Shown: positions 2,320-47,113 of the stretch, one piece after another | Layout of the letters: each line of letters begins with the position of its first letter | How positions within the stretch are numbered: position 1 is the first letter of the stretch | NCBI GenBank assembly: GCA_951406725.2 | Contig: OX597824.1 | Location: 61,256,001-61,320,000 of the forward strand | Source: Octopus vulgaris | Taxonomy: Eukaryota | Direction: 5' to 3' | DNA: 64,000 bases | Program-made: the position numbers and the translations under genes | The notes under the pieces: generated by a model | What the model was told of the DNA's origin: nothing | Seen by the model: only the letters and a program-made list of their open reading frames with translations | The model's database searches: none

Positions 2320-2658
2320 TATATACGAAAGAAGGTTTGAAAATGCAATTTAAAAGATGTTTATTTACTTTACCGGTTTCACTCTTTGGAAAAAGATTGT
2401 CAAAAGTAACATGTGGAAGTTTGGTTGCGTTAATTATTGGTTGTTGCAAATTGCTACATTACATATATATATACAGTCTTTGGTAACATGTCCCTGTTAC
2501 CAAAGACTGTATATATATATGTAATGTAGCAATTTGCAACAACCAATAATTAACGCAACCAAACGACTCCACATGTTACTTTTGACAATCTTTTCCCAAA
2601 GAGTGAAACCGGTAAAGTAAATAAACATCTTTTAAATTGCATTTTCAAATCTTCTTTC

Positions 2659-2665
<7 letters not shown>
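2320..2665. repeat. near-perfect inverted duplication (~170 bp arms, 6 bp spacer)
   Basis: 2320-2488 is the reverse complement of 2495-2665 with few mismatches. Confidence 0.95.
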
Positions 2666-19766: not shown

Positions 19767-19796
19767 CTCTATATCTCATCACCAAAGTAGTGCTTT

Positions 19797-20132
19797 GGAT
19801 CTTTTCTAAAAGATGGACAGAATTTCTACTTAACTAAATGATTTGAAACTTCGTATACTGGTAGAATGTGTCAAAAGAAAACATTAATTTCTTTTGAGAA
19901 AACACGTGTGCGTGTGTGTGTGTGTCTGCTGTTTACTTAGACGCAGCAACTGAATTTAGCTCAAATGCTGGGATTTCATTGGTTAAAATTCGAAGAATTA
20001 AACTACGTAAAAGTTACAAAATACAATTTTCTCAAAAGAAATTAATGTTTTCTTTTGACACATTCTACCAGTATACGAAGTTTCAAATTATTTAGTTAAG
20101 TAGAAATTCTGTCCATCTTTTGGAAAAGATCC
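19797..20132. mobile_element. MITE with ~105 bp TIRs and exact 8-bp TSD
   Basis: GGATCTTTTC...GAAAAGATCC; AGTGCTTT at 19789-96 and 20133-40. Confidence 0.92.
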
Positions 20133-20598
20133 AGTGCTTTTATAACGGTTCCTGCATGTGAGGTCCCAGGGAGACCAGAAACCATGTCCTACTTTCGTTT
20201 TCACCCCAGAGGACTATCATTATCTTTTTCTAAATGATATTTCATGGCATTGTATGGGTTTCTAGCATTTTATTACGACTCAGCTTTGTGTGGCTCAGTT
20301 GTATGAAGTGTTTTACCGTTTGATTTTTGTGATGCCATATGAACCATATTTTTGTTTATTTATGTAGATGTGGATGAGGCTATTCGGTGTTGGTCTTGTG
20401 TTAAAAAAATTTCTACGTTCATTAGTATCAATTACTAGGAACAGGGTTTAGGAGAGTCATAAGTAATGAAAGAAGATGGAATAAAGGAAGGGAAGGTGAC
20501 ACAGATATACAGATAGATAGAGGAGTGGAATAAGATAACATCAATAATCTATAAATAGACTCAGAGGAAGTTCACTGGAAAAGTAAAGAGATAATAAA

Positions 20599-21879: not shown

Positions 21880-22735
21880 AAATTTATATAAAATAGGTAA
21901 AGAAACCATAAGTATGATCTTCATCAATTCACTAATTTTGGAGCTACAAGGAATTTGGTCTTCATCTTTGTTCCTTTTGATAACATTACAAATATTCCAG
22001 TAATAATAAGTAATGTTGCTTTGAGATGCCACATTCTTCTGATTTCTAGCACCATATCTTAATATTTGTTCGATTTCTCAAACGTTTTAAGAGATGTGTT
22101 TTTGTCAGCTGAGGCCGCACTAGCAATCAAAAGATATGTATTTTCAACATGATTGTTCGCATTAATATCTGGTCGGCTGGCCTGAATTTCCCGATCAGTC
22201 TCAACACAGAAATTACAAAAGATGGTAACTTCAGTATTCTAGACAACTTCTGGTGGCTTATTTTCCCACCAATTCTCTTTGTGAAGGAGGCTGTATGCGC
22301 GGCAGATTGACCTGTGTAAGTACTTAGCTACCCACTTATGTTTTTGTAAGGTCCCTGTTGGTGCTAAAGTATTATTGTTTGCTGTCTTGATTTCGTGTTC
22401 TCCATATTTTGCAAGAGTTTGCGGTGTGTCTCGCTTGAGTTGGCCCTTTTAATGCATAGTAATAAGCGTATATTATTTCTTTGTACTTTTCCAGAGTCCA
22501 TTTCGTCCGTTAACTTTTTACTTTATGTGGTGGCTGTGGTGGGGAACTTGGAGGACTTAAGTTGGGACAATTCCCGTTCACGTGTTTGTATTCGGAGATG
22601 ATTTTGTGCCAGTGCATGACTTTTCGACCCCAGGTAGGTCACCCGTGAGGGACGCAGTTTCAAATTAACAATAGGACAAGCGATTTGGTGTACTCTTTTA
22701 ATTTTCTTTTTGGTTTCATTAAACATTTTCGTGCT
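21880..22735 (-). mobile_element. internally deleted R4/Dong-like element (N-terminal region fused to RLE domain)
   Basis: KWTLEKY-EIIYAYY N-terminal motif (~22460-22510) joined to LAPT..KYLHRSIC..WWENKPPEVV..TDREIQASRPDI..EIRRMWHLK. Confidence 0.75.
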
Positions 22736-23059: not shown

Positions 23060-23133
<74 letters not shown>

Positions 23134-23136
23134 ATT

Positions 23137-23661
23137 GAATGTGAGAGCAGTGGGGTAAAATATACGAAGCCCAGTATACCCATCACGACTACCCGCCTGA
23201 TAAGGGTACACCAGGCACATGCATCAGAACCATATGTGCGCGACACGGTGATCTCATATCAGGATTAACAGCGCATGACCTTGCAGGTTGGGCCCAGTTA
23301 GAATTTTCTTTTGGTCGAATAGCCCATCCCACTTAAAAAGGTCCCTGAATAAGGATTGTTTAAGGATGTTGAACAAACCACCCATGTTTCCAAAGGTGAA
23401 TTATCCAAACCTCTAAGAATTCCTTTCAACACATGGCTATGATGCTCCCCCACTACTTCTGCTCGTGATCAGAGATGCACATATCGTCAGCCACTAAGGA
23501 ACATGGTCAACTGGTTAAGGTCAAACAACTGACAAGTAAATCTGTGGTATTGAGCAGAATATTTGCTGTAGTCCATCTTTTATACCAAGACAAAACAATG
23601 TACATGATAACACTTGCAATCAGTTAAGATCAGAAGCCATGAGAGCCACTATCTGGTACTG

Positions 23662-23663
<2 letters not shown>
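23137..23663 (-). mobile_element. non-coding TAA-embedded repeat, copy 1
   Basis: Highly similar to copies 2 and 3, with a ~20 bp deletion near the left end; (TTA)n both sides. Confidence 0.85.
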
Positions 23664-23722
<59 letters not shown>

Positions 23723-24278
23723 GAGTGAGAGAGCAGTTCATGCCATCAAAGTGACATTGGGGTAAAATATACGAAGCCCAATATACCCATCATGACTACC
23801 CGTCTGATAAAGGTACACCAGGCACATGCATCACAACCATATGTGCGCGACATGGTGATCTCATATCAAGATAAACAGCACATGACCTTGCAGGTGGGGC
23901 CCAGTTAGAATTTTCTTCAGGTTGAGTAGCCCATCCCGCTCAAACGGTCTCTGAATAAGGTTTATTTAAGGATGTTGAAAGAACCACCCATGTTTCCAGA
24001 GGTGAACTATTCAACGCCAAAGAATCCCTCTCAACACATGGCTATGATGCTCCCCCACTACTTCTGCTCGTGATCAGAGATGCACATATCGTCAGCCACT
24101 AAGGGACATGCTCAACTGGTTAAGGTCAAACAACTGACAAGCAAATCTGTGGTATTGAGCAGAATATTTGCTGTAGCCCATCTTTTATACCAAGACAAAA
24201 CAATGTACATGATAACACTTGCAATCAGTTAAGAAAAAAGCCATGAGAGCCATTGCCTGGTACTGCATCAGGGCATTT

Positions 24279-24280
<2 letters not shown>
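23723..24280 (-). mobile_element. non-coding TAA-embedded repeat, copy 2 (longest)
   Basis: gagtgagagagcag...gcatcagggcattttc flanked by (TTA)n. Confidence 0.88.
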
Positions 24281-24344
<64 letters not shown>

Positions 24345-24848
24345 GTGAGTGAGAGAGCAGTTCATGCCATCAAAGTGACGCTGGGGTGAAATATACGAAG
24401 CCCAATATACCCATCATGACTACCCGTCTGATAAGGGTACACCAGGCACATGCATCACAACCATATGTGCGCGACATGGTAATCTCATATCAAGATAAAC
24501 AGCACATGACCTTGCAGGTGGGGCCCAGTTAGAATTTTCTTCAGGTTGAGTAGCCTATCCCGCTCAAACGGTCCCTGAATAAGGGTTGTTTAAGGATGTT
24601 GAACAAAACACCCATATTTCCAGAGGTGAACTATTCAAACCCCCAAAAATCCCTCTCAACACATGGCTATGATGCTCCCCCACTACTTCTGCTCGTGATC
24701 AGAGATGCACATATCGTCAGCCACTAAGGGGCATGCTCAACTGGTTAAGGTCAAACAACTGACAAGCAAATCTGTGGTATTGAGTAGAATATTTGCTGTA
24801 GCCCATCTTTTATACCAAGACAAAACAATGTACATGATAACACTTCAA
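24345..24848 (-). mobile_element. non-coding TAA-embedded repeat, copy 3 (truncated at right end)
   Basis: Same left end, stops at gataacacttc; flanked by (TTA)n. Confidence 0.88.
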
Positions 24849-24849
24849 A

Positions 24850-24925
<76 letters not shown>

Positions 24926-24926
<1 letters not shown>

Positions 24927-27805
24927 TATGACCGAAAATTATATTTGTTTTAAACCTTGAAATTACATAGAAAGTATTTTGCGTAGGATATGAGCAGTTC
25001 CCATGAGCACTATCTTTTGAATTTCTGCCATTTTTGGGTTTCCTGGTATTTGAGTTAGGTAGCAATCAGCCCCTTTTGCTATCATTCCCAGGGCACCTAT
25101 GACAACAAGTATTGTTTTAGTCTTCAGCTTCCACATTTTGCTGATTTCTATTTCAAGATCTTTATATTTGCTCAGTTTTTGGTAGGTCTTGACAGATACG
25201 TTTATATCGATTGGGACAGTTATATCAATGAGGAGGCATGTTCTTTGTCTGACGTCTTTCAATATGATGTTTGGCCTATTTGCATCTATCTTTCTGTCAG
25301 TTTGAATGGTGAAGTTCCAGAGGAGTGAGATGTGGTCATTTTCAAGCACTGGAGATGGTTTGTGTTCCCACCAGTTTTTTCATGGGGCAAATTCAGGTTT
25401 TTGCAAATTACCCAGTGAATATATTGTGCAGCTCTATCATGCCTGTTGAGATACTCTGTAGGCGCTAGAAGACTGCACTTGGAGACAACATGATCAATTG
25501 TTTCATTTTGTTGTTGACATACACGACATGTTGGGCTACTGCCGTTCTTTAATATGTTGGCCTGGTAGTTTCTTGTTGGTAGGCATTGATCTTGAGCTGC
25601 TATGATAAACCCTTGTGTTTCAGATTTTAAGCCAGAGGCCATTAGCCATTGATGGGCCAGGGCTTTGTCAACATCTGCATTATTCGCTCTCTTTGGGTAT
25701 TTGCCATAGAGAGATTTTTCTTGCCATTTATCATTCAGAATATCTAAGGCTGCAATTTTAGCACGGGTTTTCATGCGCTTAGCTTTTTCTGTGCTTGTTT
25801 CTTGTATGTCTAATTCCGAAATTTGTTGTATTCAGAATTCACTTAGATATTCCTTTGCCTGTTTTGTTACTGAGTATGATGCTTTCTTGTTTTCATGTTT
25901 TGAGACAAGTTTTAACATCCAGTCCTCAGAGTTTTTCAGGTAGGTGTCTAGGCCAATTGTAGCAATCTTCATTGTTATTGCCAGTTGTAAAAGTCCACGG
26001 CCTCCCTCTTTTCTTGGCAGATAAAGTCGTTCTGTATCTGCCTTAGTTTTCGTATTTTTCTGTCAAGATTACACATTTCAGTAATTGACCAGTTAACGAT
26101 ATTGAAATTGTAAGTCACGACTGGTATGGCTAAAGCATTGATCGCTTCGATCCTGTTTCTCCCATTCAGCTCTGTCTTGTGTATTGCTCTTACTCTGCGA
26201 TAACATTCTCTCCTGATCCTTTCCTTCACTGAATGCCTTATTCCGTCCCCTTCAATTACCCCTAGGTACTTGTAGCTCTCCGCTGGGTCTAATTCTTTTA
26301 TGACATTCTGCTGGTCAAGGTTAACGTTAGATGTTTCTGTTATTTTTCCTTTGATAAAGGTAGCTTTTGCACATTTATCGAGGCCAAATTGCATTCTGAT
26401 GTCATCACTGAATTGTTTAACAATCGCTAGTAAGCCCTTGAGTTGTTGGTCATTTTTTGCAAAGAGCTTTAAATCATCCATGTAAATGAGATGATTTATA
26501 TTTTTATCAAACATTTTATATCAGTACTTCGCGTCATTGAGCAATTTTGAGAGAGGTATCAAGGCTAAACAAAAGAAGAGTGGTGATAGTGAGTCACCCT
26601 GGAAAATGCCACTTAAAATTTTTACATCACCAGCATTTAAAGATTCATTGTCACTGTTCAAGGTTAGTGTGGTTCTCCATGATCTCATACTTACAGACAA
26701 GAAGTTTCGCAGAGTAGGCGCTATTTTATACATTTCCAGGCATTTCTTTATCCAGCTATATGGTAGGCTATCAAAAGCCTTTTTATAGTCTATCCAGGCT
26801 ATTGATAAGTTTTTGTGTAGTTTGTGACAATCTTCTAAGATCATCTTATTGATGAGTAGTTGATCTTTACAACCATAGGATCCACGTTTACATCCTTTCT
26901 GTTCATTAGGGAATATGCTGCTGTCTATTAAAAAACTATAGGTATATTCCGTCAGGACAGATGTTAGCGTTTTATACATAGTTGTTAAGCAGGTTATGGG
27001 TCTATAGTTTTTGGTTTATTTGTTTCTTCACTTTTTGGAAGCAGGAATGTTAACCCATTAACTAGCCAAGGAGGCATCCTACTAGGGTGTTGCAAAACAT
27101 CATTGTAAAGTTCTGTTAGCAGTTCATGGCTCTCTGGGAAGGCATTCAACCAGAAGTTAGGAATTTTATCCTTTCCTGGAGACTTCCATTTGCTTGACCT
27201 CCTGAGAGCAGATCTTATATCTTCTACCTTGACACCCTCCCACTTTTGCTCTTCTAAGGAGTCCAGTTCTGTAGATATTCTATCAATCCAGGGGGCCTTT
27301 TCGTTGTGTGTTTATTCTTCTGCCCAAATTTTATTCCAAAGTCCCTGCACTTCTTTTGATGGTACAGACTTTACAGTAACTGTTGTTTTTCCTATCTTCC
27401 TGTAAATATTTTTGGGGTTATTTTTGAACATGTTGTTGTCCTTGAAGAATCTAACACGCTTTTCATACCTCGCTATGCGGGCAGCTTTAGCAGATACCTT
27501 TTGCTTGATGGTTTCTATGGTGGCATCAATATCAAGTATAGTTTTCATATTATTATTATATTTTTTCATAAATTTTTTGGGTTTTTGTAGGTTTGGTAGT
27601 CTTGTCAACCTTAAGGTTTTTCAAATATTCAATGTCAGATCTAAATAGTTTAATTTGTTGGATACGCTCTTGCCAAGAAGGCTTTTTGTGGGAATGTTGT
27701 CGTTTTCTAATCTTTTCACCACATAGGATCGTTGAGATTTTCGCGGATGCATAGTATAGGTGGTTGAGATCTGTGATATCAACATCATTAGCTGAAATTA
27801 TATCC
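24926..27805 (-). mobile_element. R4/Dong-clade non-LTR retrotransposon (RT + CCHC + restriction-like endonuclease), 5'-truncated, frameshifted
   Basis: WIDYKKAFDS, GIFQGDSLSP, YMDDLKL, CRVC..ETIDHVVSKC, RPNII..LLIDITVP..KYKDLEIE; TAA arrays at both ends on the sense strand. Confidence 0.95.
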
Positions 27806-28480
27806 TTATTATTATTATTATTATAAATGCGTTTATTTAGACATTTCATGGCTTCAAAATATGGGGCTGTTTAGCCCTATATTGGATCTTATAAAGCAGT
27901 AGGCCGATGAGCACAGACTTCAACCGTGATCATTCCGTGCCCTTTAGATTCGGAAGATGGTAGGATGTAATTTGCTCTCTTCTTTCCGACATCTGTCGGC
28001 GTTACGATCTGACGTTCCTCTTCTCCTAACAGATTTATTCAATCAAGATGTGAAACTGAAAATGAAAGGATAATTCTAAAAGTCACTGTTGTTAAAGTGA
28101 TTATAATTTTCGGACTATTAACCTCACCTGTAGGTATCTTTGATCTTATAAACTTACGTCACTGTCATGACATTGTCAGTAATACGATGACACAATTTTA
28201 TTCTCTCTCTTTTTCACTTTCTCCCAAAATTCCTATTAACCTTTAAACAAAAATAATTTCCGTCTTTATCTCTCCATCGGAATTTCAAATTGGTGAAGAA
28301 GGAGACGAAGAAGACAATGATGATAATGATGATAATGATGATAATGATGATGATAACAACAACAACAACAATAATAATATTAATAATAATGGTTTCAAAT
28401 TTTAGCGCTAGACCAGCAATTTCTGCGGAGGAGTAAGTCGATGATATCGACCCCAGAGCTCGACAGGCCCTTATCTGATG

Positions 28481-36229: not shown

Positions 36230-39200
36230 ATCTCTGTGCTGAAGGAGATAACCCAAACAATATCATCACAGCGCTGAAGAGCAATGACTACTCAAGATCT
36301 TTAGCACTGATTGCCCCTACCACCATCATAGCGAAAAACCGTGGAGGTGTAAGAACCAAGAAAGAACAACCAAAAGGAGCAAAAACAAGAGATGAAACAG
36401 CCAAAGAAAGAAGCAAACCTGACCGCTCAGACAACAAAATGGATAAAAAGACAACACACACGAATGTACAAATTCTACTTGAAAGGTGTCTACTGGTATG
36501 GGGAGGGAGGTGCAAGCTGTCGTTTTGCACACCAAAGACCTCGCCACACCAGCATGGAACAGTGTAGGAACCACCTGCCAAAAGGAAAAGACTACGAACT
36601 ACCTGCCCCAAAACGAAGATACGCAGATGTAGTGCGTGCTACAAACCAGTCCTATCAACATGTTGTTGAAAGGGCAGCTGCTGAATAACAATCATTTTTG
36701 CGCATGGCACAAAAGATGGAGCAGCAACTGACCTGGCTACATCAATTCCACAGATGGGACTATCCCCAATATACAAGACCACCACAGCAAATAGATCCAA
36801 ATTGGACACCACTGGCAACATCACATCGGTGCTCTTACTGAACAGGCTGATAACACTTAGTAACAGGACAAAAATTCCTTTCCTGAGAGACCTTGTTGCA
36901 TGCAATCAAGCTTTATGCATAGAACTTACGGAAACACACCTGAAACCAGATATAGCAAATGTAGAAATACACATAGCACAGTATGTTGTATTACGGAACA
37001 ACAGAAAAGAAAGGAGTCACGGTGGAGTTGCTATGTACATCAACGAATACCTCACACCTCAGGTCCTTTTGTCACACTCAAATTCAATATGTGACACACT
37101 AATTATACATATACGACAACTCGATGTAGTTATATGTGCTACATATCGCCCTCCAGATGCTCCGAATCATGCAGGCAAGTGTGAAGACTGCCTTACAAAA
37201 ATAGACGTTCTAGTCACATTAGATCAACACATAGGTGTACTTCTTATGGGAGACTTCAATCTGCCCAATGTCGGATGGCCTGAAGGCTTTTCTGTCCCAG
37301 GAATGGCGCGATGCAAACAAGGACTGGTGAAGTCCCTCCTGAACCTTATCAGCACTTTGTATATGGAACAAATAGTACTCCAACCAACCAGGGCTGGTAA
37401 CATACTGGATCTCTGCTTCACAAATAATACGGACCTCATCCATAATGTGAAAGTGACACCGACACTACTCTCTGGTAGAGTTGACCATGTATGGACCAAA
37501 GGGAACCATGGACGTGCAGCCTACAAGAAACTCTCAAAATCTTTCTAGCTTGAACTTCCATTAGGCAAACTGGAAACAAATTGAGAAAGAGATACTCAAA
37601 CAAAACTGGCCTAAATGTCTCTCCTCACCGGACATCAACATGGAACTTCAACAATTCATGCCTGTAATGCAAGTCATATGCTATAAAGAGAAAGGCCACT
37701 GTACACAAGAACGAATTCCCCAGGAAGAGGAAAATTCTTATGAGACGGCGTACAAAAATTTCAAATCACCTAAACAAACAAATTGAAAGCAGTGAAAAAT
37801 CCCGCCTGAAAATATAACTGCTGGAGATTGAAAAAAATTTGCAACTCTCCCATGAAAAAGAAAGAGCAGACAAAGAAGCCTGGGCCATAGGCAATATAAA
37901 ATTTAACCTCAGAGCCTTCTTCAAGTTTGGCAAAGAAACAGCCTCAGTGCACTGCGGGATAGGGCCACTCCTCGAAAAAGATGGTTAAATCACAAGAAAC
38001 CAAGTGAGGATAAGTGAAATACTAAATGAGCAATTCAAAAGTATTTTCACTCCACCCCTAAGACACTTGCAAGTCAGCAGACTTTTTCCCGCAGCAGATA
38101 TAAAAACAGAGACAGTTATGATTGATCACATCAATATAAAAGAAGACGATGTAATAAGGGCTATAGATGAAATGAACCAAAACTCAGCTACTGGCTCTGA
38201 TGGATTCTCAGCAATTCTTCTAAAAGTATGTAAGCGAGTCCTAGCAAGACCATTGCAGTTCCTCTTTCAGAGCTTCCTTGCAACTGGCAAACTTCCAAGC
38301 AAACTGAAAGAGGGTGAAATATTCCCCATCCACAAAGGAGTAGCAGAGGCCAAACACTACAGACCTATCTTTCTGACTTCGCACATCAGCAAAGTCATAG
38401 AACGAATAGTCAGAAGAAAACTAATCACCATCTTTGAGGAAAATGACTTTCTGACTGACACCCAACATGGTTTCCGACCAGGAAGAAGCTGCCTGACTCA
38501 GCTCTAACAACACTATGACTAGGTGCTGAAACAGCTGCCCAACCACTCAAATATGGAAGTGATATATCTCGGCTTTGCAAAGGCCTTTGATAAAGTCGAT
38601 CATGGAATGATATGTCACAAACTGCGTGATCTTGGCATAGTCGGAAAACTGGGAGAATGGTTGCATGACTTTCTGAAGGATAGCAGTCAGGTGGTAGTAG
38701 TCAATGGGGCCACCTCCAATGACATGCAAATAGTGAGCGGTGTTCCGCAAGGCACTGTTTTGGGACCACTACTGTTCATAATGGCCCTCTCAGACATGCC
38801 CTCAGCCACACAGAGAGCCACGATCACAAGTTATGCAGATGATACAAAAGTCTCACAGGTAATACAGAACCCTGAAGACACTATGCACTTGCAATGTGAG
38901 CTGGACAAAATATACAAGTGGGCTGAAAAGAATAGCATGCAGTTTAATGTTGAAAAGTTAGAAGCCATGTGCTATCAGCATGAAAAATTTAATACAATAC
39001 CAATTAAATACGCTGGACCTGGAAGGATCGTAATCCCAGAGACACAGTGCGAGACCTGGACATTTACATGAATAATAATGCATTCTTCCATGTGCATGTT
39101 GCTATGTTGGCAATGAAATGCAGGCGGCTGACCGGATGGATTCTTAGAACTTTTAGAACAAGAGATCGGAAAACTATGATGGTCCTCTGGAGGACACTTG

Positions 39201-46678: not shown

Positions 46679-47113
46679 GAGTGTCTTCCCGACACGTAGG
46701 ACAAAGAAATTCACTGTTTACATTGATATGCCATTAAACTATACACACCAGATTGTTCATTTTCAAAATGAAATGAAGTTATGTGAAAAAAAACCCAAAA
46801 CCTGGTTGGTAATTGCTGTCACATCTACAATGCCCTTATCAATACGTGTGGTGTACCATTTAAAACAATATTTTGCACTTCTTGCATGGATGATAAGCCA
46901 GGGATCATTCTCAAATAATTTTCAGTTCCTTTCTTGATCGGTCAAGGTGCTCCTACAATCACAGGTATTGTAACCGATTGAGATGCCACATTTCTTTCAA
47001 TTTCAATGACCAAATCTTTATATTTTCTGAGCTTGTCAAATTCTTTTGCCGAGATATTTCTGAGCTTGTCAAGAAATACTCATGTCGATCAATACATAAA
47101 CGTTACAGCTTTG

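What the first reader, a model, noticed from the sequence alone, without database searches (positions are those of the whole stretch)
23137..24848. Triplet of ~0.55 kb non-coding elements stacked in a TAA array: candidate non-autonomous microsatellite-targeting retroelement
Seen: three similar but individually diverged copies separated only by (TTA)n. Left ends are constant and right ends are ragged (about 527, 558 and 504 bp). There is no meaningful ORF, no tRNA A/B box and no TIR. Inference: they are minus-strand retrocopies with 5' truncation, inserted independently in the same target and polarity as the adjacent R4/Dong LINE, yet not sharing its short 3' end. Either a SINE-like parasite of Dong/R4 machinery or the long 3' UTR of another Dong family. 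Best candidate here for an undescribed system.
Basis: partly seen in the sequence, partly recalled or inferred. Interest (0 to 1): 0.7.

Follow-up and report, generated by a model that had tools for sequence, protein, structure and literature searches.

The report
Non-coding hitchhiker of TAA-seeking retrotransposons
These are three separate insertions of a 558-base non-coding repeat that has tens of thousands of copies, nearly all sitting in runs of TAA, in what is likely an octopus genome; it likely borrows the copying enzyme of neighbouring Dong retrotransposons, although we found no sequence shared with them and none of the usual promoter signals.

Summary
The triplet is real. Each unit is a minus-strand copy of a discrete 558-bp non-coding element covering about 1% of a random 400-kb sample; its exact 3'-end word occurs 17,323 times, 82% followed by AATAAT. 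It has a fixed 5' end, so it is not the 3' UTR of a longer LINE. The three copies are independent insertions, each closer to copies elsewhere than to its neighbours. It inserts into pre-existing (AAT)n in Dong polarity, shows 5' truncations, and carries the same 5'-junction stutter as Dong copies (9 of 119 versus 7 of 88). Dong/R4 enzymes therefore likely mobilise it (inferred). I found no small-RNA head, polymerase III boxes, known ribozyme, or similarity to three long Dong references and 13 LINE 3' UTRs. The neighbour's 'short 3' end' is a deletion in that one copy. A 169-bp piece is shared with an older MITE. Closest kinds: EhSINE1, R2 SIDEs, SINEU, Sadhu. Repbase and Dfam could not be checked; an abundant family like this is probably already in automated libraries, unnamed. 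This scan noted what appears to be the same element earlier on other DNA.

The parts
23063..23136 (-). (AAT)n target array, 3' of copy 1
23137..23664 (-). Copy 1: family positions 11-558 with a 21-bp deletion near the 3' end; older type, about 93% to consensus
23663..23722 (-). (AAT)20 array between copies 2 and 1
23723..24278 (-). Copy 2: full-length element, young type, 98% to consensus
24008..24175 (-). Segment of copy 2 (family positions 105-273) also carried inside an older MITE elsewhere in the genome; window coordinates approximate
24281..24344 (-). (AAT)21 array between copies 3 and 2
24345..24850 (-). Copy 3: 5'-truncated, family positions 55-558, about 97% to consensus
24850..24925 (-). 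(AAT)25 array between the Dong copy and copy 3
24926..27808 (-). 5'-truncated, frame-broken Dong/R4 LINE copy (family 'A' here): RT, CCHC and restriction-like endonuclease region; about 170 bp deleted from its 3' UTR

Best explanation
The unit is a discrete, non-coding 558-bp repeat family found almost always inside (AAT)n arrays, and it is likely a non-autonomous retroposon copied by the reverse transcriptase/endonuclease of the genome's TAA-targeting Dong/R4 LINEs. Shown: fixed ends, 5'-biased truncation, insertion into pre-existing AAT arrays in Dong polarity, independent origin of the three copies, and a 5'-junction stutter shared with Dong. Inferred: Dong protein nicks an AAT array and primes reverse transcription at the element's 3' end. 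Each insertion leaves target repeats on both sides, so later copies stack head-to-tail, which gives the triplet. Inferred and weakest: the RNA starts at or within about 3 nt of the fixed 5' end, most likely from a polymerase II start, and is recognised through RNA structure plus AAU repeats, not through a LINE-derived tail.
For: Discrete family: 40 best hits are 97-100% identical and near full length. Asymmetry: of 30 loci found with the 3' 100 nt, all 30 end at position 558 followed by AAT and 10 start beyond position 20; of 30 found with the 5' 100 nt, 28 reach the 3' end. Genome-wide: 14,203 of 17,323 exact 3' words are followed by AATAAT, control 0; 5,651 matches of AATAAT+0-4 nt+head, a few double-counted, against 8,167 heads. 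Copies taken in genome order: 43 of 43 have an AAT-like 3' array, 31 of 43 a 5' one, 21 of 23 among young copies (one mismatch per triplet allowed). Polarity: AAT 137, ATT 3, other 38 of 178 5' flanks; 36 of 38 adjacent pairs co-oriented. Pre-existing target: one host repeat with an internal AAT array is empty in 4 copies, holds this element in 6 and Dong C in 1. Junction stutter: 9 of 119 element junctions, 7 of 88 Dong junctions (A 1/17, C 5/44, D 1/27, the last doubtful). Stutter units mostly restart at positions 1-3 without AAT between them. Independence: window neighbours rank 57th-127th of 155 by identity. Dong targets (TAA)n in molluscs (PMC7998251, passages).
Against: No direct link to a Dong protein was shown. 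No similarity to Dong A (881+4039 nt), C (3966 nt) or D (4763 nt, 5' end incomplete), nor to 13 LINE 3' UTRs (best shuffle p 0.04 of 13 tests); stringent LINEs normally need a shared tail. The stutter was not measured in non-Dong retroelements, so its specificity is untested. Dong A, C and D heads share a GGACGT word that the element lacks. Folding is not exceptional: whole-length z -1.57, no 80- or 130-nt window below -2. 10 of 20 older copies lack a 5' AAT array. Two loci share about 280 nt of upstream sequence with different outer flanks, so the 5' end is not absolute.
Confidence: 0.75

Rival explanations
1. It is a short internally deleted derivative (SIDE) or tail-sharing partner of a Dong family that I did not sample or that is now extinct; the mobiliser is still Dong, but recognition is by an ordinary shared end.
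For: Known for R2 (PMC3414825, abstract) and, as a 70-bp shared tail, for EhSINE1 (PMC2996970, passages). An octopus annotation lists 51 Dong-R4 families (PMC13282606 supplement); I compared three long references and 13 UTRs.
Against: A profile search of 1.35 Mb of fetched DNA with element copies masked found only the element's own head stutters and nothing else below E 1.7. The young Dong families tested (C and D copies about 99% alike) are the likely current partners and share nothing. No HDV-like fold with the conserved loop was found.
Confidence: 0.14
2. It is a conventional polymerase III SINE with an unrecognised head, or it is mobilised by another LINE clade whose tail happens to be AAT.
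For: Size, abundance and subfamily structure are SINE-like. RTE elements of octopus end in microsatellites (PMC9115989, passages).
Against: No A/B box pair in the head; TTTT runs at positions 80 and 514; no Rfam hit. AAT lies on both sides and pre-exists at empty paralogous sites, so it is a target, not only a tail.
Confidence: 0.07
3. It is the long 3' UTR of a LINE, seen as 5'-truncated copies.
For: 5' truncations are common; 2 of 40 non-AAT 5' flanks are same-strand Dong coding sequence joined directly to a truncated copy (L006, L166).
Against: Those two joins differ in element position (290, 243) and in Dong region. A third or more of copies start at positions 1-20 right after AAT (19 of 43). 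Only 279 of 8,167 heads have G/C at two tested upstream positions, and most of the 100 listed are the element's own head repeated.
Confidence: 0.03
4. The triplet arose by local tandem duplication, or the unit is a DNA transposon.
For: Head-to-tail arrangement; a 169-bp piece is shared with a MITE.
Against: Copies belong to different haplotype groups and have closer relatives elsewhere. No terminal inverted repeats; truncation is one-sided.
Confidence: 0.01

Closest known systems
EhSINE1 / EhLINE1 of Entamoeba histolytica
   Same: 500-600 bp, non-coding, no identified small-RNA precursor, only imperfect polymerase III boxes, depends on a partner LINE (PMC2996970, passages; that EhLINE1 is an R4-type RLE element is recalled).
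   Different: EhSINE1 shares about 70 bp of 3' end with its LINE and inserts without a fixed target; this element shows no shared tail with the Dong families tested and is tied to (AAT)n.
R2 SIDEs and other bipartite non-autonomous LINEs (RIME, NARTc, Bov-A)
   Same: Non-autonomous, use an RLE or other LINE enzyme, inherit its target and 5'-junction pattern (PMC3414825 abstract; PMC5786205 passages).
   Different: They consist of LINE 5' and 3' ends, often with an HDV-like ribozyme; neither was found here. PMC5786205 (2018) lists only RTE, Ingi, Vingi and R2 as sources, not R4/Dong.
SINEU and Sadhu
   Same: Short retroposons without a recognisable polymerase III promoter; SINEU's partner was inferred from shared target preference (PMC4494074, passages).
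   Different: SINEU has a U1/U2 snRNA head and a Tx1 partner; Sadhu is a plant element. No snRNA head here.
Dong (R4 clade) LINEs
   Same: Same (TAA)n target, polarity, stacking and 5' stutter.
   Different: Dong encodes RT and endonuclease; Bombyx Dong has a 5' HDV-like ribozyme (PMC3774820, passages). This element encodes nothing.

Membership tests
Non-autonomous non-LTR retroposon (broad) | Dispersed multi-copy family with constant 3' end and variable 5' truncation | tested here: met
Non-autonomous non-LTR retroposon (broad) | No coding capacity, no LTR or TIR | tested here: met
Non-autonomous non-LTR retroposon (broad) | Target-site duplication | tested here: inconclusive
   Invisible inside AAT arrays; empty and filled paralogues both carry AAT
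Classical SINE (tRNA/5S/7SL head, polymerase III) | Small-RNA-derived head with A and B boxes | tested here: not met
Classical SINE (tRNA/5S/7SL head, polymerase III) | No internal T4+ terminators | tested here: not met
   TTTT at positions 80 and 514
Classical SINE (tRNA/5S/7SL head, polymerase III) | Polymerase III transcription | not testable with these tools
   Only assembled contigs were available
SIDE / bipartite non-autonomous LINE | 5' and 3' parts homologous to a partner LINE | tested here: not met
   Against Dong A, C, D references and 13 3' UTRs only; other families not sampled
SIDE / bipartite non-autonomous LINE | 5' HDV-like ribozyme (R2/R4 type) | tested here: not met
   Own descriptor scans and Rfam; a divergent fold could be missed, and the scan had no positive control
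Dong/R4-mobilised element | Inserts into (TAA)n in Dong polarity | tested here: met
Dong/R4-mobilised element | Same 5'-junction signature as Dong | tested here: met
   9/119 versus 7/88; specificity against other LINE clades not tested
Dong/R4-mobilised element | Trans-mobilisation by Dong protein | not testable with these tools
   Needs a biochemical or cell assay
Retrozyme / hammerhead-bearing repeat | Hammerhead core with stems | tested here: not met
   Two CUGAnGA words, no Rfam hammerhead hit
Dong/R4 LINE (adjacent element) | RT plus CCHC plus restriction-like endonuclease, (TAA)n target | tested here: met
   Pfam RVT_1 and zf-RVT; PD...D endonuclease motif read by eye from recalled knowledge; relatives end in AAT arrays. 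No clade tree was built.
Catalogued repeat in Repbase, Dfam or SINEBase | Sequence match to a named entry | not testable with these tools
   Libraries not held; six 15-18-mers absent from searched full texts

The most novel reading that the evidence does not exclude
Octopus Dong enzymes mobilise, in trans, a retroposon that has neither a small-RNA head nor a LINE-derived end: a microsatellite counterpart of the L1/Alu pair, in which AAU repeats and RNA shape replace poly(A). It would be a partner class not yet described for the R4/Dong clade, occupying about 1% of the genome, and its 5' stutter would seed new minisatellites.
Probability: 0.4. Interest if true: 0.68.

Novelty: new variant of a known kind. 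Interest (0 to 1): 0.5.

Why it matters
Target-specific RLE retrotransposons are thought to recognise their own 3' ends strictly, and their known passengers carry those ends. A 558-nt RNA that reached tens of thousands of copies with no visible shared end would be a compact natural substrate for asking what Dong-type enzymes really recognise, which bears on programmable insertion tools of the R2 type. It also explains part of the 'unclassified SINE' mass and the AAT-array clutter of octopus genomes, and warns that TAA microsatellite markers there sit on insertion hotspots. If a partner tail turns up in an unsampled Dong family, it is an ordinary new LINE-SINE pair.

Tried and rejected
Rfam at relaxed E-values: only low-complexity miRNA-type matches, none on the element. 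Polymerase III boxes, hammerhead and HDV-like descriptors: nothing convincing; the HDV scan also found nothing in Dong A or C heads. Folding: z -1.57 on the element strand, +0.61 on the other; predicted long helices and a few G-U/Watson-Crick-neutral subfamily changes are too few to show a conserved structure. A 40-residue frame across the MITE/element segment has no Pfam match and is treated as chance. Expression: no RNA holder listed; contigs of runs only guessed to be RNA carry the element at a much higher depth relative to Dong A than a probable DNA run, but the tool's depth is no measure of expression, so it is not used. PDB search with one Dong fragment: no hit. Literature: nine full-text searches found no description of this element; 8 supplementary files of PMC9115989 held no match and 4 large ones were not searched; the supplement of PMC13282606 has no sequences; the 2015 octopus genome paper was not held. 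Age polarity in stacks (upstream copy younger in 19, downstream in 9 of 36 pairs) is biased by locus selection and not relied on.

Full report
OBSERVATION. The window holds three similar minus-strand units at 23137-23664, 23723-24278 and 24345-24850, separated only by (TTA)n arrays, followed by a 5'-truncated LINE at 24926-27808. The genome is 2.8 Gb in 227 contigs. From size, repeat make-up and Dong abundance I infer an octopus; this is an inference.

A DISCRETE FAMILY. A search with copy 2 gave 4,051 first-look candidates; the 40 best places are 97-100% identical and near full length. A 558-bp consensus has no long reading frame. Its exact last 14 bases occur 17,323 times (reversed control 189), and 14,203 of these are followed by AATAAT (control 0). 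An exact 18-base head word occurs 8,167 times; 5,651 matches place AATAAT within 0-4 bases upstream, a few counted twice. Forty 10-kb stretches taken at round coordinates held 11 pieces, 3,986 bp, or 1.0%, which implies tens of thousands of copies. Contigs from runs of three other coded organisms (B, D, F) lay on it in thousands (4,540; 60,671; 36,705), a fourth (C) with one contig.

RETROTRANSPOSITION MARKS. Of 30 loci found with the 3' 100 nt, all end at 558 plus AAT; 16 start at 1-5, 4 at 11-14 and 10 later. Of 30 found with the 5' 100 nt, 28 reach the 3' end. These sets favour young copies. Among 43 copies taken in genome order from the 3'-word list, 14 start at 1-5, 5 at 6-20 and 24 later (three or so of these are alignments split by internal indels); 43 have an AAT-like 3' array and 31 a 5' one, 21 of 23 among copies at least 95% identical, only 10 of 20 among older ones (one mismatch per triplet allowed). 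5' flanks are AAT in 137, ATT in 3 and other in 38 of 178. One host repeat with an internal AAT array is empty in 4 copies, filled by this element in 6 and by Dong C in 1 (loci not randomly chosen), so AAT is a pre-existing target shared with Dong.

THE TRIPLET. The three copies carry different diagnostic haplotypes. By identity their window neighbours rank 57th to 127th of 155 other copies. They are independent insertions. Stacking is common: 36 of 38 adjacent pairs are co-oriented.

NOT A LINE 3' UTR. The 5' end is fixed and follows AAT. Requiring G/C at two upstream positions leaves 279 heads; most of the 100 listed are tandem repeats of the element's own first 18-24 or more bases. Among 40 non-AAT 5' flanks, two are same-strand Dong coding sequence at different positions and only one pair shares a foreign flank. 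The neighbouring Dong's 40-nt UTR is a deletion; 11 relatives have 209-247 nt.

LINK TO DONG. Many Dong-like families end in AAT arrays here. Families C and D are young, with copies about 99% alike. Short reiterations of the first inserted bases at the 5' junction occur in 9 of 119 element junctions and 7 of 88 Dong junctions (A 1/17, C 5/44, D 1/27, the D case doubtful); loci chosen for odd flanks were left out of the element count, and only matches of at least 93% were scored. Same target, polarity and junction habit point to Dong enzymes; this step is inferred, and other LINE clades were not scored for the stutter. Against it: no nucleotide similarity to Dong A, C or D references, to 13 LINE 3' UTRs (best p 0.04 of 13), or to anything else in 1.35 Mb by profile search.

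TRANSCRIPTION. No A/B box pair lies in the head, TTTT runs sit at 80 and 514, and no hammerhead or HDV-like fold or Rfam family was found. Full-length Dong A, C and D heads share a GGACGT word, which resembles a polymerase II downstream element (recalled); the element lacks it. Because stutter units mostly restart at positions 1-3 without AAT between them, the RNA template likely ends there, by a start site or by processing. I favour a polymerase II start; this is the weakest step. Two loci share about 280 nt upstream with different outer flanks, which shows that a longer unit can be copied at least once. Folding is unremarkable (z -1.57).

ORIGIN CLUE. An older inverted-repeat element of about 495 bp (arms about 124 bp, TWA-like flanks read by eye, copies 79-91% to their consensus, 98 exact hits of one 30-mer) carries positions 105-273 at 96% identity. 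Some of its diagnostic bases are enriched in the oldest element copies. Capture of an old copy by the MITE is the simpler reading; direction is not shown.

COMPARISON. It works like EhSINE1, R2 SIDEs and SINEU, but fails the defining tests for classical SINEs and, against the families sampled, for SIDEs. Papers seen: PMC13282606 (first third of the text, passages, supplement), PMC8967140, PMC5786205, PMC2996970, PMC3774820, PMC3747384, PMC9115989, PMC4494074, PMC7998251, PMC11371274 (passages), PMC3414825 (abstract). PMC13282606 reports 51 Dong-R4 families and 1,279 unclassified SINE families in Octopus vulgaris, so the sequence is probably in such a library without a mechanism. Nine searches found no description; subscription journals, Repbase, Dfam and four large supplements were not seen.

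After my own analysis, a word search returned a note from another window describing a 558-base non-coding element stacked with Dong in TAA repeats; a sequence look-up had returned nothing. It agrees but is not independent support.

VERDICT. Real, abundant, best read as a Dong-mobilised non-autonomous retroposon (0.75). New variant of a known kind; interest 0.5, rising to about 0.68 if the lack of any shared end survives a full library comparison and trans-mobilisation is shown.

Noticed in passing
L148-L162: An older MITE-like element with about 124-bp imperfect arms and TWA-like flanks carries 169 bp of the element between its arms.
   Followed up: partly
L103, L104, L106, L107 (Dong A 5' ends); L237, L211 (Dong C, D): Dong heads share a GGACGT word. 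Dong A has a long 5' UTR; L107 lacks about 750 nt of it that begin with a GT donor-like site, suggesting a spliced retrocopy.
   Followed up: partly
L223-L232, L164, L032, L041: 5'-junction stutter builds minisatellites of 18-24-nt units, up to a dozen or more repeats, from both the element and Dong copies.
   Followed up: partly
L012, L020, L060, L112, L116: A host repeat made of a tRNA-like head, an internal AAT array and a downstream part with a hammerhead-like core (read by eye; Rfam gave no hammerhead hit on L012) serves as a landing pad.
   Followed up: partly
L205 and L211: Two distant loci share about 280 nt of upstream composite sequence plus the element, with different outer flanks: possible 5' transduction.
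   Followed up: partly
L175, L203, L024: 5' inversion and head-to-tail partial duplications without AAT, as expected from snap-back or template jumps.
   Followed up: no
window 36685-39071 (+): Broken LINE of another type, with an AP-endonuclease-like domain and RT.
   Followed up: no
window 2320-2665 and 19796-20133: Palindromic segments of about 350 bp (96% and 78% self-complementary).
   Followed up: no
window 21972-22367 and 46822-47058 (-): 3' fragments of two other Dong-like families beside microsatellite arrays.
   Followed up: no
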